A stretch of 64,000 bases of DNA. Origin: Trypanosoma brucei. Taxonomy: Eukaryota. The notes under the pieces were generated by a model. That model worked only from the letters and a program-made list of their open reading frames with translations, was not told the DNA's origin and did not search any database. Below, in pieces: positions 30,640 to 53,400 of this stretch (within the stretch, counting starts at the first letter, position 1; every line of letters starts with the position of its first letter). The position numbers and the translations under genes were made by a program. Location of the stretch: positions 2,784,001 through 2,848,000 of the forward strand of contig CH464491.1 in the NCBI GenBank assembly GCA_000002445.1, written 5' to 3'.

Positions 30640-33600
30640 ATGTCAAGTTCGCGAAAACGCCCCCGCGAGAGTGGTGTTGGTGATTTACACATCACTGTCG
30701 AGGCCCAACAAGCAGACGGTATTCCCCCCACAGCTTGTGCCCGACATCTTTCGTTGCTTTTGCAGCAGCGTCAACAGCAGCGGCTGCGACTTGCCGCGGC
30801 CCCTCTTTCTTTCAGCTATGCACCCGTCACTGTCCTTTCGCCATGGCAGCGGGTGACTCTGTCCTCTTTCCAGCGTCTGCACGGCAGTGAACAGGATGAA
30901 CGTCACGCCGTCGGCCTCCGCCGCGCGCTCCAGCGGGATCTCGGGCGATACATGGAGGACACGAAACGCCGTGAAGAGCGCATTCGAGCGGAGCAACGGG
31001 AGGCACGTGCAAGGCTTGGGGCTAGACTCTCCACCGCTGTGGGGAAATTGTGGTCGAGGCGTGGGGACATTTTCCAGCAGCTCCTGGCGGTCGAGTTTGA
31101 CGAGGTGAAACAACGTCGGGCGGAGCAACGGCAGGAAGATCTGTTGCGGGAAGCTGAAAACCTCACTCGCACGCTCTTGGAAAGCATCTTTTCCGATGTG
31201 AAGTGTAACGATAAAGATGATGGGGGGAGAGGTGGGAACATCAGTGAAAATGTGGTTGCACTTCTGGAGGGCGGGGATGAAACAAATATAAGCTGTGGTG
31301 CACAGCTGGAGACCTCACTGTCATTACTCGATACTCAAGGGGGCAGCAGGCAGCTGCGTGACTATCAGCGCTCCGCTCTCCGTTGGATGACAAACCTGTA
31401 CAGCAGGGGGCTGAACGGTATTTTAGCTGATGAAATGGGGCTTGGGAAAACTATTCAGACAATTGCATTGCTTGCTTACTATGCTGAGTACAAGAACGAC
31501 TGGGGACCTCACCTTATTGTCGTCCCCACAACGGTTGTGTTAAACTGGAAGGCGGAATTCCAGCGCTGGTGTCCGGGTCTTCAGGTCATTGTATATATGG
31601 GCTCAAAAAAAGAACGACATCGGGTGCGACAGGGGTGGATGCAGGAGGATGCATTTAATATTTGCATTACCTCGTACAACCAGGTGGTGAAAGACCGAGT
31701 GGTCTTTCGCCGGCGCCCATGGGGATTCCTCGTCCTTGATGAGGCGCATCAAGTTAAGAACTTTATGAGCAAAAAATGGCAATCTCTCTTTGACCTTCAG
31801 GTCGAATATCGGCTGCTGCTGACCGGCACGCCTCTACAAAACTCTATAATGGAGCTTTGGTCTCTTTTTCACCTGCTCCTTCCGTCCGCATCGGCGTTTA
31901 GCTCCGATCAGGAGTTTCGCGAGTGGTTCAGTAATCCCATGGAGGAAATGGTCACGGGGCGCGCCGCCCTCAACGAAGGTATCGTGCGTCGGCTGCAGGC
32001 TTTGCTTCGACCTTTCATGCTTCGACGACTGAAAAAGGACGTGGAGGCACAGCTACCCTCCAAGACGGAGAAGGTCGTCATGTGCCGACTATCACGGCGA
32101 CAGCGAATGCTCTACGATGATTATATGCAGCTGGCAGAAACGCGTGAGCGAATTAGCGGTGGGGCGCGCGGCGTATTGGGAGTTTTATTGGCACTCCGTA
32201 AGGTCTGCAATCACCCAGATATGTTTGAGGAGCGGCGAACCGTTACGCCAATGGCCTTAGACCATCAAAGTGAGATTGTGATTGAAGTCCCACGAGATGT
32301 CTTGCTTCGTGGAAATAACTACAGCGGCTGTTACAGGTTTCAGAAGTGGAGGTTATGCATCGACGATGTATCCCTCCCTTCCCAAAGAGGAGAACCGCAT
32401 GACGTGGCACGTGTGGAGGACGGCACCTTATTCGACGATTCCTGGTTACATTGCACCAAGTTGTATGTACTGACAGTAGATCATTGGTGGAGGATGCAAG
32501 AACAGGAAATCAGTCGGTACATCGCCAGATACTCGACTGATAACTTCCATTGGCCATCTGATGTGCCCCGGATCCCGCCAGGGAACGAAGGGTTGAGTGA
32601 AGACATCATGTCGGTGATACAGAACTACGTAGAGGAAGAAATGATGACGACGGACCAACGCCGACGTATGACAACTACCATACAGGTAGAGCGGTATCAT
32701 AGAATGAGTGCTTCAGTGTGTGTAGGGTACCCAAATTGTCTTCACATTGCTCTCCCATTCCAGGAACAAGAGGATGTGCGATGGGGCGAAGGGAAATGTT
32801 GCGCTTTGTCGCACTTACCAAGGGGATTGAGGCCGACGTTGAGACAACGCGTCAACGCTGTTCTCCCCATAGCGTTTAAGGTTGCTGTCTACGTACCAGC
32901 CGCGGTAGCCGCTCGACCTCCGCGGTTGCACTGTCGTCTACCGGTGGCCCATTATCAGTCATTCCGCGCACACTGCCGAAGGAGCCTTGCTCCGTTGCTT
33001 GCCATAGCTTTACCTCCACCAGCTTCGCAATTTTCTCGTAAGACGAGTAATCGCGCAAACTTATTTGATGCTTCGCCCTTTCTTTACGAGCTTTGGCCAC
33101 TCTACGTCCGTCGTTGCTTCAGCTTCCCAGACAGGCATCTGCTTATTCACGACTGTGGCAAACTGCAGTTCTTGAAACACTGCCTCAAGCAGCTGAGGCG
33201 GGAGGGGCATCGTATGCTTATATTCACACAGTTTGTTCACATGCTCAACATACTGGAACGCTTTTTAGCCCTTATCGGTTTGCCATACCTGCGTATTGAT
33301 GGTAGCACGCAGCCGGAGCGGCGCCAGGCATACGTCGACTGGTTCAATGAAGATGAACGCATTACGTGCATGATTTTGTCCACCCGCTCGGGCGGCATCG
33401 GACTCAACCTGACAGGAGCGGATACGGTGATTTTCTACGACAGCGACTGGAACCCTACAATGGATCTCCAAGCGCAGGACCGTTGCCACCGCATAGGACA
33501 AACAAAGCCGGTGACAATATATCGGCTTATCAGTGAGCATACCGTGGAAGAGAGTATTTTGCAAAAGGCACGCGAGCGGAAGAAACTCAACAATGTGGTC

Positions 33601-34275
33601 ATCCGTGGAGGGCAGTTCCATGCCATGGCAAACGTGGATGACGTCTATGAAGACACTAGTGCAGCCTTAGCTGCACTGTCGAATCCCGTGCAGTTGCGAA
33701 GCTTTTTCCACGATTTGGATGAAGACGCCACTGTCGTGGCGGACGACCCTCTTCCAGGCAACGGACACCAGGACAACGGTGGACGCTGTGACATTAAGGA
33801 AGGTAGCGGAACAGAAAACAACGAAGCAGTGGACATCCGTGTGGAAATGATGAGACTGGAGGATCAAGAGGATCGCGAGGCACAGCAGAATGTGGAGGAG
33901 GAACTGCGCAAGCTTGAGGAGCAGAAGCGGAACGATGAAGAGGAACTTGGTGATGAAGATAAAGATGAGGAGGATGAGGATGAGGACGGGCACCCACAGC
34001 AAAGGAGAGGCGAAGGAAGAGAGGAAGGGGAAATGATGGCAGACCCGATGGTTGCCGTCAGCCTCATGTCGGGACGCGGATCGCCCGCTGTGCTCCAGAA
34101 ACGACGTGACATATTGAGGCGTCAGCGGACTCCCCTCGACCAATTGCTGTCGCTGCAGTACGCTGTTTGCCACAACGTCGAAGCGCGACGGCGTTACGCT
34201 GGGTTGTGTGAAAGTTACGCACGGCAAGTAGGTGAAGATGAGTTGCCTCTATTTACGGAAACATTTAACTCGTAA
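30640..34275 (+). CDS. SNF2-family chromatin remodeling ATPase with a split ATPase domain (SWR1/INO80-type).
   Basis: Motif I is LADEMGLGKTIQTIALLAY and motif II is LVLDEAHQVKN, followed by LLLTGTPLQNSIMELWSLFHLLLP. The helicase-C region carries GLNLTGADTVIFYDSDWNPTMDLQAQDRCHRIGQTKPVTIYRLI. About 300 aa are inserted between the two RecA lobes (nt ~32230-33160). The tail is acidic and Glu/Asp-rich. Confidence 0.9.
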   Translation: MSSSRKRPRESGVGDLHITVEAQQADGIPPTACARHLSLLLQQRQQQRLRLAAAPLSFSYAPVTVLSPWQRVTLSSFQRLHGSEQDERHAVGLRRALQRDLGRYMEDTKRREERIRAEQREARARLGARLSTAVGKLWSRRGDIFQQLLAVEFDEVKQRRAEQRQEDLLREAENLTRTLLESIFSDVKCNDKDDGGRGGNISENVVALLEGGDETNISCGAQLETSLSLLDTQGGSRQLRDYQRSALRWMTNLYSRGLNGILADEMGLGKTIQTIALLAYYAEYKNDWGPHLIVVPTTVVLNWKAEFQRWCPGLQVIVYMGSKKERHRVRQGWMQEDAFNICITSYNQVVKDRVVFRRRPWGFLVLDEAHQVKNFMSKKWQSLFDLQVEYRLLLTGTPLQNSIMELWSLFHLLLPSASAFSSDQEFREWFSNPMEEMVTGRAALNEGIVRRLQALLRPFMLRRLKKDVEAQLPSKTEKVVMCRLSRRQRMLYDDYMQLAETRERISGGARGVLGVLLALRKVCNHPDMFEERRTVTPMALDHQSEIVIEVPRDVLLRGNNYSGCYRFQKWRLCIDDVSLPSQRGEPHDVARVEDGTLFDDSWLHCTKLYVLTVDHWWRMQEQEISRYIARYSTDNFHWPSDVPRIPPGNEGLSEDIMSVIQNYVEEEMMTTDQRRRMTTTIQVERYHRMSASVCVGYPNCLHIALPFQEQEDVRWGEGKCCALSHLPRGLRPTLRQRVNAVLPIAFKVAVYVPAAVAARPPRLHCRLPVAHYQSFRAHCRRSLAPLLAIALPPPASQFSRKTSNRANLFDASPFLYELWPLYVRRCFSFPDRHLLIHDCGKLQFLKHCLKQLRREGHRMLIFTQFVHMLNILERFLALIGLPYLRIDGSTQPERRQAYVDWFNEDERITCMILSTRSGGIGLNLTGADTVIFYDSDWNPTMDLQAQDRCHRIGQTKPVTIYRLISEHTVEESILQKARERKKLNNVVIRGGQFHAMANVDDVYEDTSAALAALSNPVQLRSFFHDLDEDATVVADDPLPGNGHQDNGGRCDIKEGSGTENNEAVDIRVEMMRLEDQEDREAQQNVEEELRKLEEQKRNDEEELGDEDKDEEDEDEDGHPQQRRGEGREEGEMMADPMVAVSLMSGRGSPAVLQKRRDILRRQRTPLDQLLSLQYAVCHNVEARRRYAGLCESYARQVGEDELPLFTETFNS

Positions 34276-35062
34276 TTCCAGCGAAGGAAAAAGGAGAGTG
34301 CCCGAAGAGGGGTGTGAGGTTCCGAGGGCACGGTCTTGCGATGCCTTGTGCTCCTCCCGCTCGTCGTTTTGTATGTTTTTACAGGTACCCAGCTTATTTT
34401 GCCATGAACGTTCATCGGGACGAACAAAACGGCGGGTTGGCGCATGCACCGGAGAGTTTGTCGGTTGTAGGTCATCGATCCAAGAAGCCGGAGCTGGAAA
34501 TGATTTCGGAATACCCGAGGGCGCACGTAATGAGACGTGACCCCGAGGTATGCGTTCCGGGCGGCGTTTTTAGCGGGCCTCGGCGCTACAACTCACTTTT
34601 GTCTTCGGTCCTGGATCCGTTGTGCGCTGCAACACGGACCCTATCAATGTCCGCCTGTCCTCCTGTATTTGCACTGCTTCACCCTGTATCGCAAGTCGTG
34701 GCCGTTTAATAATGAAGTGCCATACCGCGACGCATTTCGTTGAGTGTGGCTTGGCCCTGGAGCCCGCTTGACTTACAGTGTGGCTCCTTCTGTTTTTTGG
34801 GGACAAAAACGTAAAAATCCCACCTCCCCCCCCCTCATGGTTCTGTTGTACCCGAATTTAAGACGCGTTTGCACGTGTGAAGAACGTATGTGTGACGGTT
34901 TTCCGAATAAAGGTCTCTCTATCCCCCCTTCTCCTTTTGTAACCACTGTTCCGGTTGTTCCCCTGTATGCACGGTAGTGAGGGAAACGTGAACCGGTGCA
35001 CTGGTGAGTCGTGCATTAGTAAGAAAGGGAACCATAGTAGCAGCGCAGGCATATAGATTGAA

Positions 35063-35719
35063 ATGGAAGTGGCATTCACCATTTCGCCGGGAGAACGGCA
35101 ACATGTGGAATATCTTGCAGACCTATTTGCAATTATTCTCGCGATTGAGAAAGTGGAGAAGGCCACGTTACGCGATATCATTACGCAAGAACAATACAGT
35201 TCTACCATTACACGGTTGTTAGACAAGTACAAGTCTACTGTTACCTACCTCGAACAAAGTCGCAATCCGTTCTACTCCACTATTGACTCGTTTTGGGAGA
35301 ACTACGGTTCTAGGTGTCCCGCTGCCCGCACGCGCATTCAGCTTTCGTTTGATGACGCCAAGCAACAACAACAACAGCAGCAAGACAGTGATGTTAATGG
35401 TACTGTGGATCCTAGGCTAGTGCTAGAGTGTGGTCAGCACTTCATTACACTAATGGATTCGCTAAAACTACAACAAACGGCGGTTGATCAGTTGTACACG
35501 TTACTTGCAGACCTTGTGCGTGGCTTGCAGCGGCTTGGTGTCACAGATCAGAGCTTCTTTCACCGTCTTACGACGTGGAAAGAAAAGTTTGATACCATGA
35601 ATGCCTCAGACGAACTGAGTGAACGGGACACACGCGAGTTTGCGTTTGTTTTGGAGTGTGGCTACCAGGCCTTCCACGCGTACCTTAGCGAGTCATCTGC
35701 GCGACGGCCAAAGGCGTAA
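35063..35719 (+). CDS. VPS28: ESCRT-I subunit VPS28.
   Basis: The N-domain LADLFAIILAIEKVEKATLRDIITQEQYSSTITRLLDKYK matches VPS28 [40 protein letters not shown]. The C-domain FDTMNASDELSERDTREFAFVLECGYQAFHAYL matches LSGMSASDELDDSQVRQMLFDLESAYNAFNRFL. Confidence 0.85.
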   Translation: MEVAFTISPGERQHVEYLADLFAIILAIEKVEKATLRDIITQEQYSSTITRLLDKYKSTVTYLEQSRNPFYSTIDSFWENYGSRCPAARTRIQLSFDDAKQQQQQQQDSDVNGTVDPRLVLECGQHFITLMDSLKLQQTAVDQLYTLLADLVRGLQRLGVTDQSFFHRLTTWKEKFDTMNASDELSERDTREFAFVLECGYQAFHAYLSESSARRPKA

Positions 35720-35987
35720 CGCATCTAATGGGCTGTGAAAGCATTAGGTAGAATTAGTCAAGGAGGAAATTGCTGAAGCCTAAGTTGGAGGATTGGAGGT
35801 TTCCTTTACAGACTTGGGCGTTACACTTGAGGTGTGGAGTTAGCACAGATTCATTGATATCGTTCTCTTCTTTCGATGCACAAGCGTCGTTGCCGTCAAG
35901 TAAGAAAATAAATCATCCTGGCACTTTTGGTACTCCACTCGTTTTTTTTGTTAAGTCCACAAAGAAAGTAGAAAGGGCGACCATTGC

Positions 35988-37733
35988 ATGTCACGCTACA
36001 TCCCACCACACCGAAAACGCGCCAGTGAAGTTGAGAGCGGCAATAGTAAAGGCCCTGGAGATGAGACCGTCCAGCACGAGGCCTGGCGGGCACTAGGCCG
36101 CAGCATCACAGGTATTGTGAACAGAGTGAGCGGTGAAAATGTTGAATTATCGGCAACAGAGCTGTTCCGTGAAAATATAATTCGCGGTCGCGGGCTGCTC
36201 TGTCGTAGTCTTATGCGGGCGCAGTTGGTCAACCCTGACATAACAAACGTGCTTGCAGCACTTGTAAGTCGCGTGAACAAAGAGGTCTCCACTGTCGGGG
36301 CCCTACTATGCAAGCGGCTCGTGGTACAGTGGCGGCGGCTACATCGGCGAAAAGACTGGGAAGGCTTGCGATGCGTAAGTCGTTTCATTGGGTGGTTGTA
36401 CGTGTTCAATATAGTAAACGTGGAGGTCGTCTATCAAATCATGCTCACACACCTTACGGCGGAGCCGCGTACTGACGATGACGTTGACCAAGCGGCCTCA
36501 TTGTTCCGTGAGACGTTCCGCTCCATGTCACAGCGTGCTGTCTCCGAATTCCACATGCACGTGCTGACGCCTATCCGTGACCTACTTGCAATGGACAACG
36601 ACGAGTGGCGGCTCTCAGCGCGTGCCCAAACACTACTAGAGGGATGTTTACACGAAGTACAGCAGTGGGAGCGCGTGAAACATTCGATGAGTATAATCCC
36701 GGAGCACCTCCTTTTAGTGGATCCCACAGGACAGAACTGCCACGAGGTGGACTTGGAGGAAGTGACGGAAGCAGAAACAGAGGAAAAACTTGACCGCTTC
36801 GTCTACGACTCGGAGTATGAAGCCCACGAAGAAGCTTATGAGAAGGTGCGTTGCGCAATTCTGGGCGATAACTGGGAGGCGGAGTTGTTGGAGGGGATCG
36901 TTGCCGCAGAAGATGCTGATGAAGAGGAAGAGGAGGGGGAGGGAGCGGAAGAACAAGGGGAGACGCAAGGCGGTGTTGACCCATCTAAACAACTTATTGA
37001 TGAGCGGGAGCGGCAAATTCGCAGGGAGGTGTACATGGCGATGCGTAGTAGCGTTCGGGCGGACGAAGTGGTGCACAAGATACTGAAGTCCATTCAACCG
37101 GATGCGGAACGTACCGTGTGCTTTATGGTGATAGAAGGCTCTTCTGAGGAGACCTCCTACAGGAAGATATACGGTATGGTAGCAGAACGACTGTGTAAAA
37201 GCAACACGAAGTTTCAAGGATATTTTGCAGAGGCGTTCCGTCTGCGGTACACGCGTGCCGAGGATCTAGAGGAAAAACAGATCGAGTACACATGCAAAAT
37301 TTATGTCCACTTACTCAGGACGGATTCACTCCCATGGCACAAGTGTCTTTCCGTACTTGATATTGTTGAAAACAACATGTCACAGCGTCTAGTCATTCAG
37401 TGGCTTCTACAGGGGCTTGCAGAGGCAATGGGAATGCGTGCACTCATAAAGAGGTTTGAAGACGACAAGGAATTGAGAATCAGCACACACAAACTCTTTC
37501 CCATAGACTCAAACACTTCCGAAGAGGAACTGGAGCGGGCGGTTAATATGTTTGAGGCAATGGGGTTGGGTGACTTGGGAAGTAAAACAAGAGGACGGCT
37601 GGAAGAGATCCGCGCCGCAAGACGAGCGAACAGCAGTCACCATTACTACGGGGCTTCGGGTGATCCTAGTTATTGTGACAATCAAAAGAAACCCAGCAAG
37701 CGACTTCGCGATGGCGCACTGGAGTACGCGTGA
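35988..37733 (+). CDS. MIF4G + MA3 domain protein, CWC22/NOM1-like.
   Basis: ELFRENIIRGRGLLCRSLMRAQ resembles the start of the CWC22 MIF4G domain. The C-terminal MA3-like block is ERTVCFMVIEGSSEETSYRKIYGMVAERLCK...YTCKIYVHLL. Acidic linker (DADEEEEEGEGAEEQGE). Confidence 0.6.
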   Translation: MSRYIPPHRKRASEVESGNSKGPGDETVQHEAWRALGRSITGIVNRVSGENVELSATELFRENIIRGRGLLCRSLMRAQLVNPDITNVLAALVSRVNKEVSTVGALLCKRLVVQWRRLHRRKDWEGLRCVSRFIGWLYVFNIVNVEVVYQIMLTHLTAEPRTDDDVDQAASLFRETFRSMSQRAVSEFHMHVLTPIRDLLAMDNDEWRLSARAQTLLEGCLHEVQQWERVKHSMSIIPEHLLLVDPTGQNCHEVDLEEVTEAETEEKLDRFVYDSEYEAHEEAYEKVRCAILGDNWEAELLEGIVAAEDADEEEEEGEGAEEQGETQGGVDPSKQLIDERERQIRREVYMAMRSSVRADEVVHKILKSIQPDAERTVCFMVIEGSSEETSYRKIYGMVAERLCKSNTKFQGYFAEAFRLRYTRAEDLEEKQIEYTCKIYVHLLRTDSLPWHKCLSVLDIVENNMSQRLVIQWLLQGLAEAMGMRALIKRFEDDKELRISTHKLFPIDSNTSEEELERAVNMFEAMGLGDLGSKTRGRLEEIRAARRANSSHHYYGASGDPSYCDNQKKPSKRLRDGALEYA

Positions 37734-38308: not shown

Positions 38309-40162
38309 ATGCAAGCCGACACATTTGCTTATGCGCGTGTGGTCGTGCGAGTTCGGCCCTTCACCGACGAAGAGGCGAAGGTCTGTCCTGAGGACAGTCC
38401 CGTTCCGCGGGAAATTGTTGTTTGGGATGGAAACAGGACCTTAACAGTTCTCGATGCTACCAACGAGTTTCTACCACGCAAAAACGGAAAGTTTGAAGTG
38501 CAAAAAGTGATGTGGTCTTTTGTGGACGACTACCAACCAAGCGCGGTGGTACATAAACAAAAGGATGTTTACGACGCAATTATGAAACCTGCTATTGGGC
38601 GTATCCTAGACGGGCAAAACACCGCGTTTTGTGTAATGGGAGGGGCGGGGAGCGGGCGTGTGTATTCTCTCTACGGCAATAGCGTCGATGGATTAGAGGG
38701 CGGCATTCTTCCACGCTTTACTGACGAAATATTGGCCGCCTTCAAGCGCGAAAAGCGGGAGGACAGCACTGTCAAGTGCCAAGTTGAGGCAATTGATGTG
38801 TCCAACGAGACCTATGTGGATCTGCTTTCGCCAAAGCGTAAACCCGGGGCTAACGCTCAACAGGAGTACAAACTCGTACTTGATCCAGTGGAGGGTACCA
38901 AACTTCAGGGGGTGACGCGCGTTGATGTGCAAAAACCGGCCGACATGCTAAACATAGTGAGGCAGCTGTCGCAAGTGGTGCCCAAGCGTAACTCCTGTCA
39001 CACTGTCACTCTACGCATTGTTGAGTCCTTTCAGTTCACTGATCCCGAGCAAGGTCAGGCAGTCACAATGTCACGTCGCGTAAACGTTCTTTTTGCCCTT
39101 TTGCGGAACATGCCGCTCGGTTTCCAGCGCTGCGTTGACATTGCTGTGGAGCGTGACAGTGGTGAGAACCCTTTGGGGAAGGTGCCAACACGCGACACGG
39201 CTTTTACGAAGCTCTTCCCTGACTTACTGCAGCACGGCTACCACTTGAATTTCCTTTGCTGCGTCAGCCCCTTCTATGAGCATGTCCGTGAGACGATGCA
39301 GACGCTTACAGTAGCAACGAAGTTATCGAAACTGAAATGCAGCCCGAAGCGCTCACAAGATGAGGCACTGGTTCAACTGCGAACACTGGCTGCAGAGGTA
39401 AAGAATCTTAAGTCCGAGATGGTAAAGCAATCAGAGTCCACGAAGATTGTACAAAATGAACTCAATGCACGTGAATTGGCGTTGATGAAGCAGGAAGCCG
39501 CCCACCATGAATGCCGGAACAAGTTGTTGGCATCTTCAGAGAGATTGAGCATAGCAAGGACAGCGTTCAAGTTGAATGTGATCCGCACGGCAGTGCATCG
39601 CAAGAAGTTCCAAGATTCGGTGAGCAAGTTAAGGCGGGCTTTGGCGGATGTGGAGGTGGAAAAGGACAAAGCGGACGCCAATATGGTTGCGGCATCCCGT
39701 GAGACGGGGGAAATTGAAAAGAGGATACTGCACACAAATAGGCAAATCAAAACTCAGGAAGAAGTTAATGCTGTGTGCGAGGAAAAGGTTCAGAAGCGGG
39801 TTGATGGCGAAACGAAGTTGAAGAAGATCCTCGCATTCTTGAATGCATCTCCCGAGGAGAGGTTGCGCCTAATCGAGATGGACGTGGAGGCCAAAGAGCA
39901 AGGGCGGGCTGAAGAGGAGCAGCTGGAAAAGGAAATGGCAAAGATCACAAAGGAACTTGAGGAAATGGAGGCACGTTGCCGGGCTATCGAAAAGGAATTC
40001 GAATCGGTGCATCAAAAGGAGGGGGTAACCCGTGAGAAGGTGGACCTAAAGGCGAGACTCAGCAGTATGGAAAAGGATATCGCGGGAAAGGAAGAAGAAA
40101 ACAGGCAGCTGAGGATTCAGGCCGAGACTAAGTCTTCAGGATGCCAGTGTGTTACCATGTAA
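38309..40162 (+). CDS. Kinesin-like protein with divergent motor domain and C-terminal coiled coil.
   Basis: The kinesin-type N-terminus is ARVVVRVRPFTDEE. The P-loop position reads MGGAGSGRVYSLYG instead of GQTGSGKT. The motor end is LNFLCCVSPFYEHVRETMQTLTVATKLSKLK (compare ISPxxxNxEETLSTLRYAxRAK), followed by about 270 aa of coiled coil. Confidence 0.7.
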   Translation: MQADTFAYARVVVRVRPFTDEEAKVCPEDSPVPREIVVWDGNRTLTVLDATNEFLPRKNGKFEVQKVMWSFVDDYQPSAVVHKQKDVYDAIMKPAIGRILDGQNTAFCVMGGAGSGRVYSLYGNSVDGLEGGILPRFTDEILAAFKREKREDSTVKCQVEAIDVSNETYVDLLSPKRKPGANAQQEYKLVLDPVEGTKLQGVTRVDVQKPADMLNIVRQLSQVVPKRNSCHTVTLRIVESFQFTDPEQGQAVTMSRRVNVLFALLRNMPLGFQRCVDIAVERDSGENPLGKVPTRDTAFTKLFPDLLQHGYHLNFLCCVSPFYEHVRETMQTLTVATKLSKLKCSPKRSQDEALVQLRTLAAEVKNLKSEMVKQSESTKIVQNELNARELALMKQEAAHHECRNKLLASSERLSIARTAFKLNVIRTAVHRKKFQDSVSKLRRALADVEVEKDKADANMVAASRETGEIEKRILHTNRQIKTQEEVNAVCEEKVQKRVDGETKLKKILAFLNASPEERLRLIEMDVEAKEQGRAEEEQLEKEMAKITKELEEMEARCRAIEKEFESVHQKEGVTREKVDLKARLSSMEKDIAGKEEENRQLRIQAETKSSGCQCVTM

Positions 40163-41900: not shown

Positions 41901-43277
41901 ATGGTGCTCCTCTCTGTTCTGGATAAAGCAAAGGACATGGCTTCGCGTCTTCTACCAACGCCTTACCTGGAACTTGTAGAGGAGGCCACTGAACCATGCT
42001 TAAGTACTCCTAAACTATCGGCTGTGACGCTGCTATGCGACAATGCCAATACGCGGGCGGAAAGCGTGGCCGATGTTGTGCGGGCTGTCCGCCGCCGCAT
42101 CGCCAATTCTGATCCAACTGTGCAGTATCTCACAGTTATTGTGCTGGAGTCGCTTGTCAAAAATTGTAACACGAAGTTGCACACGGAAGTCGCTGCGCAG
42201 AAAGGCATTGTGAAGGAACTGTACAACATTGCCACCCGCAGCGCTACCAGTGAGAAGGAGTGCTTAGCGAAGGAAGCAGCTTTGGCGCTCATTCTTAATT
42301 TCTCTGTTTGGTTTGCAGGGCATCCCAACAGCCGGTTAAAGTTCTTGACGTCAGTCGCTGAGGCTGTTCGACGGGCTGTAGGGCCCAATGCATTTGATGG
42401 AATCCAGCCCGACATTGATACGCGACTCTCCATGGCAGTAGGCCCAACGGGCCAGCGCACCCGTCCCCCGGCGAAGCAACCGAACAAATCAATACACCAT
42501 CCACCAGAAACTGGACTCCCGCCGGGAGCACACGTGGTAGACGCAATTGGCATCGTTTTACCAACGGACGAGGAGCTAGGTACCATGCTTGACGTATGTA
42601 TGACCCTTGCAGAATACCTCAATGACATCAAAGTGAACGAGGACGGAAGTGTAGAAATGGATGACGTTATCGAGAGTATTCTCAGTAGTATACGCAGCAG
42701 CAATAAACTAATTTTATTGATCCTTGGTTCTGATCTGAAGCCGAGTAACAGGGAAATGCTTGTGGATGTTTGCAACAGCCAAAATAATCTGATGCAGCGC
42801 CTGTCCAAGCGGGCACCTTCACAAGATACACGACAGGGCGGCACCACAGCACAATCGACTTCAGATTCACTGTCGGGGGCCTCGGTGGCTGCGACCGCTA
42901 AAACGCCATCAGCAAGTTCAAAAATGACGGCGGCAAGTGCAGCAAAGCCAAGTGCCCCACCCGAAACCCCAAAGGAGCAGCCGGTGAAATTGTTGGGCGC
43001 ATCTCAAACAGTGAAAAGGCCAGTGAAGCCAACAGGGGGTGAAAGTGCCGCACATCCACAAAACCCTCTTGACCTACTTGACGACCTATTCCCGGCTGCG
43101 CCCGCCCAGGCTCCTGCAGCGGCACCGCCGGCAGTTGAGGCGGTGGGAAAGGGAGCAGAAAATAACTGTGAAGATATGTACAGTAGTGAAGAGGTTTCTG
43201 AAGAAAGAAACCGGAAACCGGTTAAGCACGTTTATACCGATTTTGAAGACCTTTTGGCGCGACAGGCACCAAAGTAG
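41901..43277 (+). CDS. VHS-domain protein (TOM1/Hrs-like endosomal adaptor), with a Ala/Pro/Ser-rich low-complexity C-terminus.
   Basis: The N-terminal ~140 aa have VHS-like helices (DNANTRAESVADVVRAVRRRIANSDPTVQYLTVIVLESLVKNCNTKLHTEVAAQKGIVKELYNIA). An alternative start at 41937 (MASRLL) is possible. Confidence 0.55.
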   Translation: MVLLSVLDKAKDMASRLLPTPYLELVEEATEPCLSTPKLSAVTLLCDNANTRAESVADVVRAVRRRIANSDPTVQYLTVIVLESLVKNCNTKLHTEVAAQKGIVKELYNIATRSATSEKECLAKEAALALILNFSVWFAGHPNSRLKFLTSVAEAVRRAVGPNAFDGIQPDIDTRLSMAVGPTGQRTRPPAKQPNKSIHHPPETGLPPGAHVVDAIGIVLPTDEELGTMLDVCMTLAEYLNDIKVNEDGSVEMDDVIESILSSIRSSNKLILLILGSDLKPSNREMLVDVCNSQNNLMQRLSKRAPSQDTRQGGTTAQSTSDSLSGASVAATAKTPSASSKMTAASAAKPSAPPETPKEQPVKLLGASQTVKRPVKPTGGESAAHPQNPLDLLDDLFPAAPAQAPAAAPPAVEAVGKGAENNCEDMYSSEEVSEERNRKPVKHVYTDFEDLLARQAPK

Positions 43278-47822: not shown

Positions 47823-50498
47823 ATGGTATCCCCTGACAGGTGCATGAACAAAGGTTCCTCCCCCACATTCACTGATTTCCCCCCTCTTCTTTTGCTACTT
47901 CTTTCGACTTCGCCATCACCGAATCTACTACAAATAGTTACTCTTGCGCACACACGGATGAACGTCGCGTGGGGGACAAAGACTACACGTAATTGTAATG
48001 AACATATGCTAATGGCTTCTCCAGTGGCAGATGGATCGTGGAATCGGTCAGTGCGTTCTCTCCGTTGCTACAGCACGGAGTCTCATAGGTACAACCATAC
48101 CCCGTGCGACGGCAGCATTCCCATTGCATTTGCTCCGGTGGGCCTATCTTGCCTCCAAACGGGAGCCATCGTGGGGCATGCAAACCAGAATTCATCCATT
48201 CCAGTAGCATGCCAACGTGGCTTATGCACCTACGGTCACGATGTACAACTATTGCAGCATCATCACCAGCTCTACAACCAACGTCAAAGGTTGAGACGCG
48301 GCGCCCCACGCGAAGCCCCCGTAGCAAAAGAGACCGGGAGTGTTGAATACGGCGCGGGCCCTCCGACAGGATCTAACAGCAAGAGACCGCTTCGGTGGGA
48401 GGGTAGTCAGTCTTCTTTGAACGAGTCTCGTAAACAAAAGAAAAGGAACAGTGGGAGTGTGCGCGATCTGCTATTTGTTGCACATGTGTCCAACTTTTCC
48501 CAGTTGGAAGAGTTGCGGCGTACTAATTCCCTTCCGGATTTCCTACAGTCGTTTGTGCCGAAGCAGGCCAATCCGCCAACCACAAGTATGCCGATGAGGT
48601 TCTTGATCGTGGTTGAAAAGTTGTACCTTGCAGCCTGCGTGTCAATCCCACCGTCACCTGAAGATGTTGTTCTCTCTGAGAGGACGGCAGTGGAGTTTCT
48701 TGAGGTTCGGTACGTGCACTGCGACGATGGGCACCTCCTGGTGGACCTAAAGAGCGGTACATGCGTTGCCAAACGCATTCACTCAACATTTCGGAAGGCA
48801 CTGGTGCAACTTTCAAAACTTGAAGCAAAGTTGCTCACCGGTGAATATGCTGGAACCATGCAAGTCCTCCAGGATAAGTCACTTTTCAGAGGCATCTCCT
48901 ACAACCCCCTGGTCTATGCTGCGCTTTTCAACCTCTTAACGCAGAATGGGGGAGAAGAAGACATTGATGCCGCAGACTTGTGGTCAAAACTTATCCGTGA
49001 GCCTACACCCAACAGTTCACACAGTGACACGGCGGAGAGAAGCCATACACGATATGAGAAAGCAGAAGATGGTGAAAAACACTTGGTTGGCGACACTGCT
49101 TCGCTTCTCCCCTCCTGTGGAGTTGCGCTCTTCTCAACTGTTTACGGAGTTCGTTTGTTTAAGCGAGTAATGGGTATCCCCGGGTTGCGGAGGCTTTTTT
49201 TCCAACTGTTGGTGGAAGCAGCGCAGCCGATGTCAGTAACCGAAGTAACGACACCACCACCCTTGAAAGATGATGAAGCACTTGAAAGATCCACGGCCAA
49301 TGTTACGAAACGCCCCTCTGAGCAGTGCTTCATGGCCATCTTCTCGTGCTCACTCACGTCGTATTTCCTCTTTGAGTGCTTCGGTCTCGTGGATGGAGCA
49401 GACTGTTGCGAAGAGGAAGTGGATATCATTTGTGCCTGTCTAAAGCGATCTGCGGTGAAGGTTGCCTGTAGCAACGGTGGAAGCTTCACGATGATTGGGT
49501 TAATCAAGGCCCTTTCCACCCGTCGTTTCGGCGAATGCCAAAGGAACTGGCAGGGGGACGAAGGCAGCGTAATTGTGCACGAAAAGAGTGCGAGTATTAT
49601 CGACCCAAACAGCGAGAGTAATGTCCTCAGCACCTCTTCACCACATGAAAGGCTGCGAGAACGGCGGGTGGAAAGTGACGAAAAGTTTTTCCGCGCGGTC
49701 ATCAGGGGATTTGTGGCCGGTGAAGGCCCAGGAAGTACACGTGAAGAGAAAGTTTCACGAGGCCGCCGCGTGAAGTTTCTTACGCAGCACGTCATCGCAT
49801 GCCGTGTGACGCAGAGCCTCATTCCGGTACTTGTGGATTCCATCCACCTTATGGAGGATCGGATGAAAAAGCGCCAACGGCAGGAACCAGTCAGAAGGGG
49901 GGAAGAGGAGGAGGAGGATTTGTTGGAAGTGCAGTACTTCGAGGACTGTACGGCATTTCTTGAAGAAGCAACTGACCAGTGTGGGTTGATGGTAAACCAC
50001 GCGCATGGGAACTATGTACTTCAGGCGCTCATACGCGAATTAGTTAAGCGTAGTACACCACGGTCATTTGTTGAGAAAATGCTACAGAAAGTGTCAGATA
50101 TGCTCATTGCGTCCATACTTGAGGTTAGCAAGGAAAAATTTGCATCCAACTGCTTAGAAGCAATGATTGACGCCTGCAAGACAGCGCGTGGGGGAAATGG
50201 GATGATTTTATGCCTCGGGTCAACTTTACTCCGTAAGGGAAGGGACCGCATGCTACAAGTGACATTTGATCAATATGGAAACTACGTCGTGCGCAAAATG
50301 CTCAATCATATCACAGCCCTCGCGGTGGGTGAACAGAAAGCAATGGAGAGTGAACGAGAGGAAGCACGCAGACTGAGAGGGCAGTATTTTAGTATACTTG
50401 CGCAAAATTCCGAACAACTTCGCACCGCGCGATACGGATCAGGCATTTACGACTGGATATGTTGCCAGAGCTCCGGAATTCCTGCATCGCATAAATAA
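47823..50498 (+). CDS. Pumilio/PUF-family RNA-binding protein, with a long N-terminal extension.
   Basis: C-terminal PUF repeats carry canonical motifs: HAHGNYVLQALIRE, KFASNCLEAMIDAC and FDQYGNYVVRKMLNH. The true start is probably downstream of 47823, because the first ~30 codons are polypyrimidine-derived. Confidence 0.75.
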   Translation: MVSPDRCMNKGSSPTFTDFPPLLLLLLSTSPSPNLLQIVTLAHTRMNVAWGTKTTRNCNEHMLMASPVADGSWNRSVRSLRCYSTESHRYNHTPCDGSIPIAFAPVGLSCLQTGAIVGHANQNSSIPVACQRGLCTYGHDVQLLQHHHQLYNQRQRLRRGAPREAPVAKETGSVEYGAGPPTGSNSKRPLRWEGSQSSLNESRKQKKRNSGSVRDLLFVAHVSNFSQLEELRRTNSLPDFLQSFVPKQANPPTTSMPMRFLIVVEKLYLAACVSIPPSPEDVVLSERTAVEFLEVRYVHCDDGHLLVDLKSGTCVAKRIHSTFRKALVQLSKLEAKLLTGEYAGTMQVLQDKSLFRGISYNPLVYAALFNLLTQNGGEEDIDAADLWSKLIREPTPNSSHSDTAERSHTRYEKAEDGEKHLVGDTASLLPSCGVALFSTVYGVRLFKRVMGIPGLRRLFFQLLVEAAQPMSVTEVTTPPPLKDDEALERSTANVTKRPSEQCFMAIFSCSLTSYFLFECFGLVDGADCCEEEVDIICACLKRSAVKVACSNGGSFTMIGLIKALSTRRFGECQRNWQGDEGSVIVHEKSASIIDPNSESNVLSTSSPHERLRERRVESDEKFFRAVIRGFVAGEGPGSTREEKVSRGRRVKFLTQHVIACRVTQSLIPVLVDSIHLMEDRMKKRQRQEPVRRGEEEEEDLLEVQYFEDCTAFLEEATDQCGLMVNHAHGNYVLQALIRELVKRSTPRSFVEKMLQKVSDMLIASILEVSKEKFASNCLEAMIDACKTARGGNGMILCLGSTLLRKGRDRMLQVTFDQYGNYVVRKMLNHITALAVGEQKAMESEREEARRLRGQYFSILAQNSEQLRTARYGSGIYDWICCQSSGIPASHK

Positions 50499-53400
50499 GC
50501 GAGGAAGTGGTGCCGAAGTGGAAAAATAAAAGATAAAAGGTAAAAAAAAAAAAAATGTCCTGGAGAATGAATGTATGGTTCTAAGAAGGGATACAAAAAA
50601 AAAAAGAAAAAGAACACTGATCAAATATACGGAAAAATAAGGGAAGACAAGACCACGGTTTTTTTTTGTACTCTAAGCGGTCACGCACCGCCGCGTGATG
50701 ATAAATGTCGTCTTTGTCGCTTCCCCCCTCCCCTTTTGGGGAGAATGTGTTTAACGTCAAAATTGTTATTTTGTCCTTTATGTCCTTTCGTGTCTTTGTC
50801 TTTCTTTTCTTTGCCTTTACTTATAACGGATGAACGCCGTTATTATTACCGTCGTTTCGAGAATAAAATGGAGAGGAAGGCTGACGTGCAGGGAGAAGGG
50901 AAAGTACATTGTCTCTTTTCTTTTTTTTTTTGCTTGTTTCGAATTCCCTTGCTTTTTTTTCCTAATCTCAAAAAAAAAAACGTAATAACACGTGTCCGAA
51001 GTGAAAATTAGCAGGGAAATGAGGAGGAAATTAAAAGGCGAAAGAAGAGGTTTTAAAGAAGCTGCTGATGCTGTATCCTTAACTTTTTAGTGACGGTATT
51101 TGAAAAAAAAAACAGAAATAGAGATTTGTTGATCAGCGCAATGCATTGAACGCATGGTTCCGCTATTTCAAAAAAAAAAGAAACGAAGTGATAAATGGTG
51201 GTTCATGCAGCTAAGTAAAGAACTAAATTGTAGAAAGAAGGTGCAAAGTTTACCAATAACCACAATGACTTTTCTCCCTGCTCTTTTTTATTCTATTCCT
51301 CAAAAAGTAAAGCAAAAAAAACTGCAAGGCAACCAGTCACCACCTCGAAGACTGAGGATTGTGCTTCAGACGGTAAATAAATAATAATAATAATAACAAT
51401 GACAATAAATATAATAAATGTAGCGTTCACTCACAGTTTCTCAAATTTTGATGTTGCCGTTGTTCCATCTTATAACGGTTGAGCTGAAGGGCTACGAAAG
51501 GGAATCCCTCTTTGCTTGCGCCGTGCGTATTTTGCGTGCGCCTGCGCTTTTGTTTGTTCTGTTTTTTTTGTTTGTTTTTGATCTTTAATTTGTTGTGTGT
51601 TGATTATCTTTATCATCTTTTTTTTTTTCACCCTCTTCCTCTGTTGTTGTTGCTATTGTTGAAATGCTTTATACTCTTCTTGCGACTGCAAGTTACTACT
51701 GTCGTTAAAAAACTTTATATTAATGATTTTCTTTTTTGTTGTTAAATACGTTGAATCACTGCTGCAGTAGACGTATTTTAAAAAAAAAAGAAAGTGGGGG
51801 AAGAAGTTTTGCTCATGAACGGCACGCTCTTTTATATGTGTGTGCTGTTTTTAATTCACGCTTGTTGCCACTTGCGACGGGCGGTGCCGGTATTAATTTT
51901 CATTTGTTTTGTTTGTTTGTTTTTTTTCGTTTGTTTTTTTTTACTTTTTATGAAGATACGAATGTAACCATTCGTCACCGCTTCTTCCCCCACACTTACC
52001 TCTTATGTACATTTTTTTTTGTTTTTGTCTGATATTGTCATCCTTGAAAACAACAACGGCAACAGCAACAACAACAACAACAACAGTAACAATAATAATA
52101 ATAATATATTATTATTATTATGTTATATTATATATTTTGTGTTATAAATGTTACTACTATTGTATAATATGTATACGTATGAAGAATATTTATACAATTA
52201 TATATCTCAATATGCTTTGAGTTTCCTTTCCTTACTTTCCCCCTCTATCCTTTCTTTTGTTTTTCCTTTCTATCAGTTTTTTTTTCTTGTATTATCCAAA
52301 ATTGGGGTACTCCTCTTTCATTTATTGATTTGTTAATGTATTTATGAACTTACAGTTTTTTTTTTAAAAAAATAAAAACGTTCATCTTTATATATTGAAA
52401 TATATCTTTATATATTTATTTATGTATTTTACCAGACAGTTTTGCCTCCTCTGCCCCCTCATTGTTTCAAGTACTGTTGTAATGCAATTTTGGTTTGCTT
52501 CCTTTTAACTTTTTTCCATAACAAATTTGATTTTTCTTTAACGCGAGAGAAACAAATATAATTTATAAATATGATATATAATTATCTGACTTAATTTGTT
52601 TTGTTTTGTTTTTTTAATGTTTCATATAGAAGGGGACACAACATTGATAAGTAAATAGATAAATAAATAATTTATTTCAAGTCTTTTGTTTGGTTTTTTT
52701 TTGAAAATGAAAAGCTATGAGTGAAACGGGGGGGGAAGCGGAGGGCTCACGGGACTATTTCGTCACTCCTTCTTTTTTTTTCAGTACAATTGTGACGAAA
52801 AGAAAAGAAAATGTAGGGAAGGGAGTCGGTAATATTAATATTTAAAAAAAAAAGGGAAATAGGAAATTTTTTTACCACTATTGTTGCTACTAATACCGGT
52901 GTTTGTTTGGTGCCAAACACCATCTGTTTCCATTTTAATTCTTTTGTGTTTATATGTTTTCTTTTTCTTTTGCCTCTTCTTTCCTACTTTATCCTCTTGT
53001 TTGTTTGACTTTTTTTTTCTCCCACTGATTCCTTCATGATCCACTTAGGCCCGTGAATTTGGACCGTTGTTTGTTGGCTCTTTTAGTTTGTTCGTTTGTT
53101 TGTTTGTTTGTTTTTGTTTTTGTTTTTGTTTTTTTTTGTTTTGCCTTTACTTTACTTTGCTTTGCTCGAGTGTTCCACCACAAGACGCCGCGCAGGTCGA
53201 CCAGCGCTGACAGTTTGCAGAAAAAAAAAGGAAATAAAATTTGTAAATAAAATAAAACAGAGTCACAAGAAGGAAACAAGGGGGAACGGCGTAGTGGAGG
53301 CAGCGGTATCACCGACTTAACCCACCTCTTCGTACTCACTTACTCCGTGTGTGTGTGTGTACGCGCGCGCTGTTGTATTTGTTTGTGTGTCTGGTTTATT

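What the first reader, a model, noticed from the sequence alone, without database searches (positions are those of the whole stretch)
38309..40162. Kinesin-like protein whose nucleotide-binding P-loop is degenerate
The ORF opens with the canonical kinesin N-terminus (ARVVVRVRPFTDEE) and ends its motor with the conserved ISPxxxxxxETxxTLxxAxxxK region (CVSPFYEHVRETMQTLTVATKLSKLK). At the Walker-A position it reads MGGAGSGRVYSLYG instead of GQTGSGKT/S, and I cannot find a clean DLAGSE switch-II motif. Together with the long C-terminal coiled coil this suggests a pseudo-motor: a kinesin fold retained for microtubule or partner binding without ATPase activity, a recurring theme among kinetoplastid-specific kinesins.
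Basis: seen in the sequence. Interest (0 to 1): 0.5.

Follow-up and report, generated by a model that had tools for sequence, protein, structure and literature searches.

The report
TbKIN-D: lipid-tailed kinesin, dismantled ATPase site
This ORF is the already-studied Trypanosoma brucei kinesin KIN-D; its head keeps the kinesin fold but has lost almost every ATP-hydrolysis residue, and it ends in a conserved, untested lipid-anchor signal, so the reported ATPase activity and its link to the membrane deserve a second look.

Summary
ORF 38309..40162 (+, 617 aa) is a kinesin-fold protein whose P-loop reads GGAGSGRV instead of GQTGSGK[ST]. Switch I (SSRSH) is deleted except for the His. Switch II (DLAGSE) is replaced by LLRNM, and about 28 residues (loop L11 plus half of helix α4) are missing.

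It is not a new gene. It is T. brucei Tb927.11.10760 = Tb11.01.2530 = XP_829140.1 = kinesin-D (TbKIN-D). KIN-D is the essential partner of TbKIN-C, a coiled-coil heterodimer that organises the subpellicular microtubule corset. It was flagged "divergent" in 2010. The literature cites in-vitro ATPase activity for it, which the sequence makes hard to explain; I could not read that primary paper.

New here:
- About 31 kinetoplastid relatives all lack DxxGxE. The Mg-binding P-loop position holds 11 different residues, while the Gx4G[KR] scaffold is kept in all 31.
- A prokinetoplastid sister sequence shows an intermediate state.
- Every complete member ends in CC/CxC-aaX, with X = M, Q, S or A (CVTM here). 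This farnesylation-type box was catalogued in 2011, never tested, and is masked by the C-terminal tags used in the KIN-D constructs I could read.

Best reading: a non-catalytic, probably lipid-anchored subunit of the KIN-C/KIN-D complex.

The parts
38309..40162 (+). Complete ORF of TbKIN-D (Tb927.11.10760 = Tb11.01.2530 = XP_829140.1 = UniProt Q383K3), 617 aa, 69.9 kDa
   Evidence: ORF. Exact-sequence match to XP_829140.1. XP_829140.1 = Tb11.01.2530. Neighbours TbSWR1 Tb927.11.10730 and CWC22 Tb927.11.10750 fix the ID order. Annotated 'kinesin-D'.
38309..39343 (+). Kinesin-fold head (aa 1-345), closest in fold to kinesin-3 heads
   Evidence: Pfam PF00225 E=5.3e-26. AF2 pLDDT about 80-92 over the head. 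Foldseek to KIF13B/KIF14/KIF1A, E about 1e-25, TMt 0.77-0.83.
38348..38359 (+). N4 motif RVRP (aa 14-17), retained
   Evidence: V15, R16 and P17 are invariant in alignment A1.
38639..38662 (+). Degenerate P-loop GGAGSGRV (aa 111-118) in place of GQTGSGK[ST]: Lys to Arg, Ser/Thr to Val, Gln-Thr to Gly-Ala; glycine scaffold kept
   Evidence: Aligned under GQTGSGKS/T. Family statistics.
38984..39004 (+). Switch I remnant KRNSCHT (aa 226-232): the SSR of NxxSSRSH is deleted or replaced, only His231 is kept
   Evidence: MAFFT with active kinesins. H231 is at least 90% conserved.
39089..39115 (+). Switch II position LFALLRNMP (aa 261-269) replacing LVDLAGSE, followed by a ~28-residue deletion of L11 and the N-terminal half of α4
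   Evidence: No DxxGxE at this position in any of 31 family members.
39122..39193 (+). Family-specific, near-invariant block FQRCVDIAVERDSGENPLGKVPTR (aa 272-295), corresponding to the C-terminal half of α4 and L12
   Evidence: R274, C275, D277, A279, D283, S284, G285, E286, P288, K291, P293 and R295 are invariant. Blocks 221-290 and 291-345 are jointly the best conserved, mean column identity 0.76 each. Aligns to LRRVIDVL...PFRES of active kinesins.
39260..39337 (+). β8/α6 end of the head, CVSPFYEHVRETMQTLTVATKLSKLK (aa 318-343), canonical
   Evidence: Aligned to ...VSP....EETL.TLRYA.RAK.I of KIF14/KIF13B/KIF4.
39359..40129 (+). Helical coiled-coil stalk (aa 351-607); published KIN-C interaction region
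   Evidence: AF2 helices 351-511, 515-527 and 536-607. Lower conservation, 0.42-0.47. Heterodimerisation through the C-terminal coiled coils (PMC3772034).
40142..40159 (+). C-terminal CQCVTM (aa 612-617): CaaX box CVTM with a second Cys two residues upstream; predicted farnesylation, possibly plus palmitoylation
   Evidence: C612 and C614 invariant, M617 at least 90%. 29 of 30 complete family members end in CC-aaX or CxC-aaX, with X = M23, Q4, S2, A1. [quoted passage not shown] S1). TB-PFT prefers X = Met or Gln.

Best explanation
The ORF encodes TbKIN-D, one half of the essential KIN-C/KIN-D kinesin heterodimer that keeps the trypanosome subpellicular microtubule corset organised.

Shown by others: KIN-D pairs with KIN-C through the C-terminal coiled coils. 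The two proteins stabilise each other against proteasomal degradation. Both associate with the microtubule cytoskeleton. Knock-down disorganises the corset in procyclic forms and blocks cytokinesis in bloodstream forms. TrypTag places the protein at the posterior tip, where KIN-C is also enriched.

Shown here: the KIN-D head keeps a complete kinesin-3-like fold, the RxRP motif and the Gx4G[KR] phosphate-loop scaffold. It has lost the Mg-binding Ser/Thr, has no SSR of switch I, has none of Asp/Gly/Glu of switch II, and has no loop L11. These losses are shared by the whole kinetoplastid family. The Mg-binding P-loop position drifts freely across the family.

Inferred:
- The head cannot hydrolyse ATP by the kinesin mechanism. 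At most it binds nucleotide. It acts as a non-catalytic second head, in the manner of KIN-B with KIN-A or Vik1/Cik1 with Kar3. KIN-C would supply any motor activity and the plus-end (posterior-tip) targeting.
- The conserved CxC-aaM tail is farnesylated, and the upstream Cys possibly palmitoylated. That would tie the tail of the heterodimer to a membrane, most plausibly the inner face of the plasma membrane that the corset underlies.
For: Identity.

Published biology of KIN-C/KIN-D: PMC3772034. Posterior-tip localisation among 12 proteins including EB1 and XMAP215: PMC9981465.

Fold.

Motif loss.

Family-wide pattern:
- 0 of 31 members have DxxGxE at switch II.
- Gx4G[KR] is kept in 31 of 31.
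- P-loop position 7 is R in 17 and K in 14.
- Position 8 holds 11 residue types and is S/T in only 8.
- Intact GxxxxGK[ST] occurs in only 5.
This drift at catalytic positions, next to strict conservation of neighbouring structural positions, is what relaxed selection on hydrolysis predicts.

Order of loss: the prokinetoplastid sequence P0046 keeps GKS, FVDLAPTD and L11 and is sister to the rest in an NJ tree.

Purifying selection on the head: column identity 0.65-0.76 in the head against 0.42-0.47 in the stalk.

Lipid tail. Catalogue entry CVTM. TB-PFT prefers X = Met/Gln, and another T. brucei kinesin (KinesinCaaX, Tb927.10.12440) is proven to be farnesylated with localisation dependent on the box: PMC3206815.

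Precedent for a dead-head partner in the same organism: KIN-B (PMC10987093).
Against: - The literature states that TbKIN-D has ATPase activity in vitro (PMC3772034 citing Hu et al. 2012). I could not read the primary assay, so I cannot say whether it had a mutant or contaminant control.
- I never obtained the KIN-C sequence, so 'KIN-C provides the live head' is an assumption.
- C-terminally tagged KIN-D (EYFP, 3HA, PTP), which should not be prenylatable, still associated with the cytoskeleton, bound KIN-C and was stable. The lipid is therefore not needed for those properties.
- Farnesylation of this protein has never been shown.
- The L12-equivalent block is acidic or neutral (ERDSGENP), and L11 is missing. 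Direct microtubule binding by the KIN-D head is uncertain. The analogous KIN-B head did not bind microtubules.
Confidence: 0.6

Rival explanations
1. KIN-D is a genuine, if atypical, ATPase motor, as published. The Gx4GR loop and RxRP still bind ATP, and hydrolysis uses non-canonical residues, for example from the invariant RCxDxA...DSGE block. The KIN-C/KIN-D pair would then be a two-live-head heterodimer.
For: A published statement of in-vitro ATPase activity. Strict conservation of the P-loop glycines, [KR]117 and RxRP across 31 members. The replaced segment is one of the two best-conserved blocks of the protein, which could mean a new function rather than decay.
Against: The residues that coordinate Mg and the gamma-phosphate, and that activate water in every characterised kinesin and myosin, are absent: P-loop S/T, switch I SSR, switch II D, G and E. 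The Mg-ligand position takes 11 different residues in the family, including V, I, L, W, Y and H, which is not how a catalytic residue behaves. The DSGE block maps to L12 on the microtubule face, not to the nucleotide pocket (placement inferred from the alignment). ATPase assays on E. coli preparations are prone to contaminating ATPases (general knowledge).
Confidence: 0.2
2. KIN-D is a dead head, but the C-terminal Cys motif is not a lipid anchor. It is unmodified, or it serves another purpose such as metal binding, a disulphide or a protein contact. The protein would act purely as a soluble or cytoskeletal stabilising partner of KIN-C.
For: C-terminally tagged KIN-D behaves well: it is stable, binds KIN-C and fractionates with the cytoskeleton. 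Farnesylation has not been demonstrated. In CVTM the a2 residue is Thr, less aliphatic than in the ideal CVIM.
Against: The Cys sits exactly four residues from the end in 30 of 30 complete family members at down to about 30% identity, although the adjoining stalk is poorly conserved. X is M, Q, S or A only, the farnesyltransferase set, and never L or F. The extra adjacent Cys mirrors the CC/CxC-aaX pattern of dually lipidated proteins such as H-Ras, RhoB and PRL phosphatases (my own knowledge). Only one allele was tagged in the published lines, so the untagged allele could supply the function.
Confidence: 0.25
3. The ORF is a decaying pseudogene or a mis-annotated reading frame.
For: Loss of catalytic motifs.
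Against: The full-length ORF is conserved across Trypanosoma and beyond at 29-56% identity, with 68 invariant columns. The head is more conserved than the stalk. The protein has been tagged, localised and shown essential by RNAi.
Confidence: 0.01

Closest known systems
TbKIN-D (kinesin-D, Tb927.11.10760) of Trypanosoma brucei, partner of TbKIN-C (Hu et al. 2012 J Cell Sci; Wei et al. 2013 PLoS One, PMC3772034)
   Same: It is this gene. The sequence matches XP_829140.1 exactly, which is Tb11.01.2530 and Tb927.11.10760 'kinesin-D'.
   Different: The literature I could read treats it as an ATPase-active orphan kinesin. It does not discuss the missing switch motifs, the L11 deletion or the CaaX tail; in PMC3772034 'P-loop' and 'farnesyl' occur 0 times.
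TbKIN-B, the inactive-motor partner of KIN-A in the trypanosome chromosomal passenger complex (PMC10987093)
   Same: [quoted passage not shown]
   Different: A different gene: 624 aa, nuclear/kinetochore, partner KIN-A. KIN-D keeps the P-loop scaffold, works at the cortical cytoskeleton and has a CaaX tail.
KinesinCaaX (Tb927.10.12440), the farnesylated T. brucei kinesin (PMC3206815)
   Same: A kinetoplastid-specific N-terminal kinesin with a coiled coil and a C-terminal CaaX ending in Met. For KinesinCaaX, farnesylation and CaaX-dependent localisation were shown experimentally.
   Different: 832 aa, CVIM, all motor motifs intact, and it moves microtubules in vitro. It did not appear among the close relatives of KIN-D. 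KIN-D's CVTM was only listed in that paper's Fig. S1.
Kar3-Vik1 / Kar3-Cik1 of yeast (a kinesin-14 with a non-catalytic motor-homology-domain partner)
   Same: A heterodimer in which one head has the kinesin fold but no ATPase, joined to a live head by a coiled coil (my own knowledge; not tested here).
   Different: Vik1 and Cik1 have no recognisable P-loop and have C-terminal heads. KIN-D is N-terminal, kinesin-3-like in fold, keeps Gx4G[KR] and carries a lipidation box.
Kinesin-3 family heads (KIF13B, KIF14, KIF1A)
   Same: Best sequence and fold matches. The least-degenerate relative, P0046, carries a KEGG KIF13 label.
   Different: No FHA domain, no K-loop and no catalytic switches. Wickstead et al. 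2010 left it unassigned ('ND, divergent').

Membership tests
Kinesin superfamily (motor-domain fold, Pfam PF00225) | Significant match to the kinesin motor-domain profile | tested here: met
   PF00225 E=5.3e-26, 91.8 bits against a cut-off of 29.3, but in two stretches with the middle unmatched.
Kinesin superfamily (motor-domain fold, Pfam PF00225) | Kinesin motor fold in three dimensions | tested here: met
   AF2 head pLDDT about 80-92. Foldseek E about 1e-25, TMt 0.77-0.83 to KIF13B/KIF14/KIF1A. This is a predicted model, not a solved structure.
Catalytically competent kinesin motor | N1 P-loop GxxxxGK[ST] | tested here: not met
   GGAGSGRV: Lys to Arg, Ser/Thr to Val.
Catalytically competent kinesin motor | N2 switch I NxxSSRSH | tested here: not met
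   KRNSCH: the SSR is absent and the segment is 6-8 residues shorter; only the His is kept.
Catalytically competent kinesin motor | N3 switch II DxxGxE followed by loop L11 | tested here: not met
   LLRNM in place of DLAGSE, and a ~28-residue deletion of L11 plus half of α4. 0 of 31 family members have DxxGxE there.
Catalytically competent kinesin motor | N4 RxRP | tested here: met
   RVRP, aa 14-17; R16 and P17 invariant.
Catalytically competent kinesin motor | Microtubule-stimulated ATP hydrolysis | not testable with these tools
   Literature cites in-vitro ATPase activity. The primary paper was not available.
Kinesin-3 family | Family-specific neck, FHA domain and K-loop in L12 | tested here: not met
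   No FHA hit in Pfam. L12 reads ERDSGENPLGK, not Lys-rich. Unassigned in Wickstead 2010. The resemblance is in the head fold and sequence only.
KIN-D orthologue group (kinetoplastid) | Exact identity with the T. brucei reference protein and syntenic position | tested here: met
   Exact match to XP_829140.1. Flanked by TbSWR1 and CWC22 as in chromosome 11 numbering. Annotated kinesin-D.
CaaX-prenylated proteins (farnesyltransferase substrates) | Cys at position -4 with X = Met or Gln for T. brucei PFT | tested here: met
   CVTM. TB-PFT preference for Met/Gln (PMC3206815). Conserved in 30 of 30 complete relatives.
CaaX-prenylated proteins (farnesyltransferase substrates) | Demonstrated covalent prenyl group | not testable with these tools
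   Only catalogued in Fig. S1 of PMC3206815. No paper in the library links KIN-D and farnesylation.
Dead-head kinesin heterodimer partner (KIN-B / Vik1 / Cik1 type) | Obligate heterodimer with a second kinesin through a coiled coil | tested here: met
   Met from the literature, not from my own computation: KIN-C/KIN-D complex, coiled-coil dependent, mutually stabilising (PMC3772034).
Dead-head kinesin heterodimer partner (KIN-B / Vik1 / Cik1 type) | The partner head is catalytically intact | not tested
   I did not obtain the KIN-C sequence.

The most novel reading that the evidence does not exclude
KIN-D is a farnesylated (and perhaps palmitoylated) pseudo-kinesin that fastens the KIN-C motor to the inner face of the plasma membrane. 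The KIN-C/KIN-D heterodimer would then be one of the long-sought links between the subpellicular microtubules and the membrane.

The reported ATPase activity would be an artefact or a trace activity. The published 'whole cell body' localisation would reflect C-terminal tags that blocked lipidation. Loss of farnesylated KIN-D would contribute to the toxicity of protein farnesyltransferase inhibitors in T. brucei.

The family would record stepwise conversion of a kinesin-3-like motor into a lipid-anchored adaptor across Kinetoplastea.
Probability: 0.25. Interest if true: 0.65.

Novelty: already known. Interest (0 to 1): 0.33.

Why it matters
The gene itself is known and its cell biology is described, so the finding is not a discovery of a new element. 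Three points could still matter to trypanosome cell biologists.

1. The sequence says the KIN-D head cannot hydrolyse ATP by the kinesin mechanism, while the literature counts it as an ATPase. Resolving this changes the model of the KIN-C/KIN-D complex from two coordinated motors to one motor plus an adaptor head.

2. A strictly conserved farnesylation-type tail was catalogued in 2011 but never followed up, and it was masked by C-terminal tags in the KIN-D constructs I could read about. It offers a concrete, testable route by which a corset-organising kinesin complex could be coupled to the membrane.

3. KIN-D is essential in bloodstream forms and carries the X = Met box that T. brucei farnesyltransferase prefers. 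That makes it a second candidate, after KinesinCaaX, for mediating the effect of farnesyltransferase inhibitors.

Tried and rejected
- **KIN-B hypothesis (my first guess from memory): rejected.** KIN-B is 624 aa and acts at kinetochores with KIN-A. This ORF is 617 aa and lies on the 5.26 Mb contig, chromosome 11 by size.
- **KinesinCaaX identity: rejected.** That protein is Tb927.10.12440, 832 aa, ends in CVIM and has intact motifs.
- **KinesinCaaX as closest paralogue or partner: no support.** None of the single-stretch generic kinesin hits I examined ends in CaaX.
- **Guessed old ID Tb11.01.3110: wrong.** It is HSP70. The right old ID, Tb11.01.2530, came.
- **Literature searches by accession (Q383K3, XP_829140, EAN80028), by 'CVTM', and by Tb927.11.10760 in main text:** nothing found. 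The gene name surfaced only from supplementary tables.
- **EB1-type SxIP motif to explain posterior-tip targeting:** none conserved.
- **Primary KIN-D and KIN-C papers and Wickstead & Gull 2006:** not held. I could not inspect the ATPase assay or obtain the KIN-C gene ID or sequence.
- **Genomic context:** unrelated genes of one polycistronic + strand unit. It gives no functional clue, as expected for trypanosomes.
- **tRNA, Rfam and tandem-repeat scans of the window:** empty.
- **Leishmania:** no Leishmania-named orthologue appeared.
Full report
**1.

An ORF of 617 codons runs from 38309 to 40162 on the + strand, with an ATG start and a TAA stop.

The protein is an unambiguous kinesin homologue:
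- Pfam Kinesin PF00225 gives E = 5.3e-26.
- phmmer against all PDB chains gives 130 kinesin hits.
- A profile of 14 orthologues reaches E = 8e-36 against KIF14.
- An AlphaFold2 model has head pLDDT about 80-92. It superposes on kinesin-3 heads (KIF13B, KIF14, KIF1A) with Foldseek E about 1e-25 and target TM-scores of 0.77-0.83.

All sequence methods match the head in two pieces, roughly aa 9-221 and aa 287-345. The piece between them does not align.

**2. Motif by motif.**

I also made a MAFFT alignment with four active kinetoplastid kinesins from the same search. Those four have intact GQTGSGKT, SSRSH and DLAGSE. The alignment shows:

| Motif | Active kinesins | KIN-D |
|---|---|---|
| N4 | RxRP | RVRP, kept |
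| N1 (P-loop) | GQTGSGK[ST] | GGAGSGRV: Lys to Arg, Mg-binding Ser/Thr to Val, Gln-Thr to Gly-Ala |
| N2 (switch I) | NxxSSRSH | KRNSCH, 6-8 residues shorter, only the His survives |
| N3 (switch II) | LVDLAGSE | LFALLRNM |
| L11 and N-terminal half of α4 | present | about 28 residues missing |

From the C-terminal half of α4 onward the protein aligns again with ordinary kinesins:
- FQRCVDIAV aligns with LRRVIDVL.
- VPTRDTAFTKL aligns with PFRESVLTYL.
- CVSP...ETMQTL..A.K aligns likewise.

Of the residues that bind Mg and the gamma-phosphate and activate water in kinesins, only a conservative substitute of the P-loop Lys remains. Those residues are the P-loop Lys and Ser/Thr, the two Ser and the Arg of switch I, and the Asp, Gly and Glu of switch II (established kinesin enzymology, from my own knowledge).

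**3. Identity of the gene.**

- The protein is identical over its full length to XP_829140.1 / UniProt Q383K3 of T. brucei brucei TREU927, on the 5.26 Mb contig.
- The upstream ORF (35988..37733) has a computed mass of 66,829 Da. The published value for CWC22, Tb927.11.10750, is 66,828 Da.
- The SNF2 ORF further upstream (30640..34275) corresponds to TbSWR1, Tb927.11.10730.
- Gene numbers therefore rise along the + strand, and this ORF is Tb927.11.10760.
- A genome-wide RNAi table carries the TriTrypDB product name 'kinesin-D' for that ID, between CWC22 and a VHS-domain protein exactly as in the window.
- The kinesin census of Wickstead et al. 2010 equates XP_829140.1 with Tb11.01.2530, leaves its family as 'ND' and flags it 'divergent'.

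**4. What is already known about KIN-D.**

From Wei et al. 2013 (PMC3772034):
- Each is degraded by the proteasome when the other is depleted.
- Both associate with the microtubule cytoskeleton. [quoted passage not shown]
- In procyclic forms, RNAi disorganises the subpellicular corset and produces cytoplasmic microtubules.
- In bloodstream forms, RNAi blocks basal-body segregation and cytokinesis, enlarges the flagellar pocket and is lethal.

TrypTag lists Tb927.11.10760 among twelve proteins of the posterior-tip subdomain of the cortical cytoskeleton, together with EB1 and XMAP215.

[quoted passage not shown] Those are not in the library. I could not judge the assay.

**5. What the family adds.**

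An exhaustive HMMER search with the head (aa 1-360) found about 22 cluster representatives that align across the whole head, including the divergent middle (E ≤ 1e-20). After a sharp break come thousands of ordinary kinesins that align only in two pieces. Together with the close orthologues this gives 31 sequences.

Named sources are Trypanosoma species, Trypanoplasma (Cryptobia) borreli, the prokinetoplastid Apiculatamorpha spiralis, and a 'Colponema' transcriptome that may contain kinetoplastid prey.

Family statistics:
- None of the 31 has DxxGxE at the switch II position.
- All 31 keep Gx4G[KR].
- P-loop position 7 is Arg in 17 and Lys in 14.
- The Mg-ligand position 8 holds eleven different residues (V, A, I, L, M, N, H, T, S, W, Y) and is Ser/Thr in only eight.
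- Only five members have a formally intact GxxxxGK[ST].

The Apiculatamorpha protein P0046 keeps GASGCGKS, FVDLAPTD and a full-length L11, but has already lost SSR. It is sister to all the others in a neighbour-joining tree rooted on active kinesins. That tree is quick and has no support values.

I read this as stepwise loss. The switches went first, and the P-loop catalytic positions then drifted while the glycine scaffold stayed. That is the pattern expected if hydrolysis is no longer selected but the loop still has a structural or nucleotide-binding role.

The head is not decaying:
- Its column identity is 0.65-0.76, against 0.42-0.47 for the stalk.
- The remodelled block at aa 221-290 is one of the two best-conserved parts, at 0.76.
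- That block has an invariant RCxDxA...DSGExP.AKxPxR signature.

**6. The tail.**

Every complete family member ends in a Cys four residues from the C-terminus, with a second Cys next to it or two residues upstream: CxC-aaX in 14, CC-aaX in 15, and a variant in 1. The final residue is Met in 23, Gln in 4, Ser in 2 and Ala in 1, and never Leu or Phe. Here the tail is CQCVTM.

- T. brucei farnesyltransferase prefers Met or Gln at X (PMC3206815).
- That paper's Fig. [quoted passage not shown]
- No paper in the library connects KIN-D with farnesylation.
- The 2013 KIN-D paper never mentions it.
- All KIN-D constructs in that paper are C-terminal fusions (pC-TbKIN-D-EYFP, -3HA, -PTP). Such fusions would block CaaX processing. 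This could bear on why KIN-D-EYFP looked spread over the cell body, whereas TrypTag scores the posterior tip. I do not know which terminus gave the TrypTag signal.

**7. Mechanism I consider most likely.**

KIN-D is the non-catalytic head-bearing subunit of the KIN-C/KIN-D heterodimer.

Inferred:
- There is no ATP hydrolysis by the kinesin mechanism, though nucleotide binding may persist.
- KIN-C provides motility and plus-end accumulation.
- The tail is farnesylated and perhaps palmitoylated, and anchors the complex to a membrane, most plausibly the plasma membrane lining the corset.

The last step is the weakest. C-terminally tagged KIN-D still binds KIN-C and the cytoskeleton, so the lipid is not needed for those properties. 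The KIN-D head may also not bind microtubules itself, because L11 is gone and L12 is not basic.

**8. Comparison with known systems.**

- It works like KIN-B with KIN-A in the same organism, and like Vik1/Cik1 with Kar3 in yeast (my own knowledge).
- It is not a member of the kinesin-3 family despite the head resemblance: it has no FHA domain and no K-loop, and it was unassigned in 2010.
- It fails three of the four nucleotide-motif tests for a catalytically competent kinesin.
- It resembles KinesinCaaX in having a farnesylation box, but it is not closely related to it.

**9. Verdict.**

The gene is already known and functionally described, so novelty is low.

What remains of interest is the discrepancy between sequence and reported ATPase, the family-wide evolutionary pattern, and an overlooked, testable lipid-anchor signal on an essential cytoskeletal regulator.

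Noticed in passing
window 40142..40159 (aa 612-617 of the same ORF): C-terminal CQCVTM: a CaaX box with a second upstream Cys, conserved as CC/CxC-aaX in all complete relatives. It was catalogued in 2011 (PMC3206815 Fig. S1) but never tested. The C-terminal tags used in the KIN-D constructs of the 2013 paper would mask it.
   Followed up: yes
window 2654..14905 (+): A very large ORF of 4083 aa with no Pfam match at E ≤ 0.001. Its function is unknown from these data.
   Followed up: partly
window 15718..19341 (+): A 1207-aa protein that fuses a complete glycoside hydrolase family 65 core (N-terminal, catalytic and C-terminal domains; catalytic domain E = 1e-67) to a C-terminal HAD-type hydrolase domain. 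This looks like a phosphorylase/phosphatase-type fusion, unusual for a trypanosome. Origin and substrate were not examined.
   Followed up: no
window 50001..54000: GC content drops to 0.37-0.39, against about 0.50 elsewhere. Between 50498 and 53547 there are only short ORFs. No tRNA, Rfam family or tandem repeat was found there. It is probably a long intergenic/UTR region within the polycistron.
   Followed up: partly
window 41901..43277 (+): The VHS-domain protein (Tb927.11.10770) is 458 aa here and in TREU927 but 494 aa in the T. b. gambiense and Logan versions. This suggests alternative start-codon calls.
   Followed up: no
window 30640..37733 (+): The upstream neighbours are the SWR1-type SNF2 ATPase TbSWR1 (Tb927.11.10730) and the splicing factor CWC22 (Tb927.11.10750). 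All ORFs of at least 250 aa lie on the + strand except two that overlap longer + strand ORFs, as expected for one polycistronic unit.
   Followed up: yes
P0026 (relative from a metagenome/SRA assembly; not in the window): A 910-aa family member contains an internal duplication of about 225 residues of the head (the segment from 'MFGSASQIASSV...' to '...KARRVNV' occurs twice). It may be an assembly artefact or a real tandem duplication.
   Followed up: no
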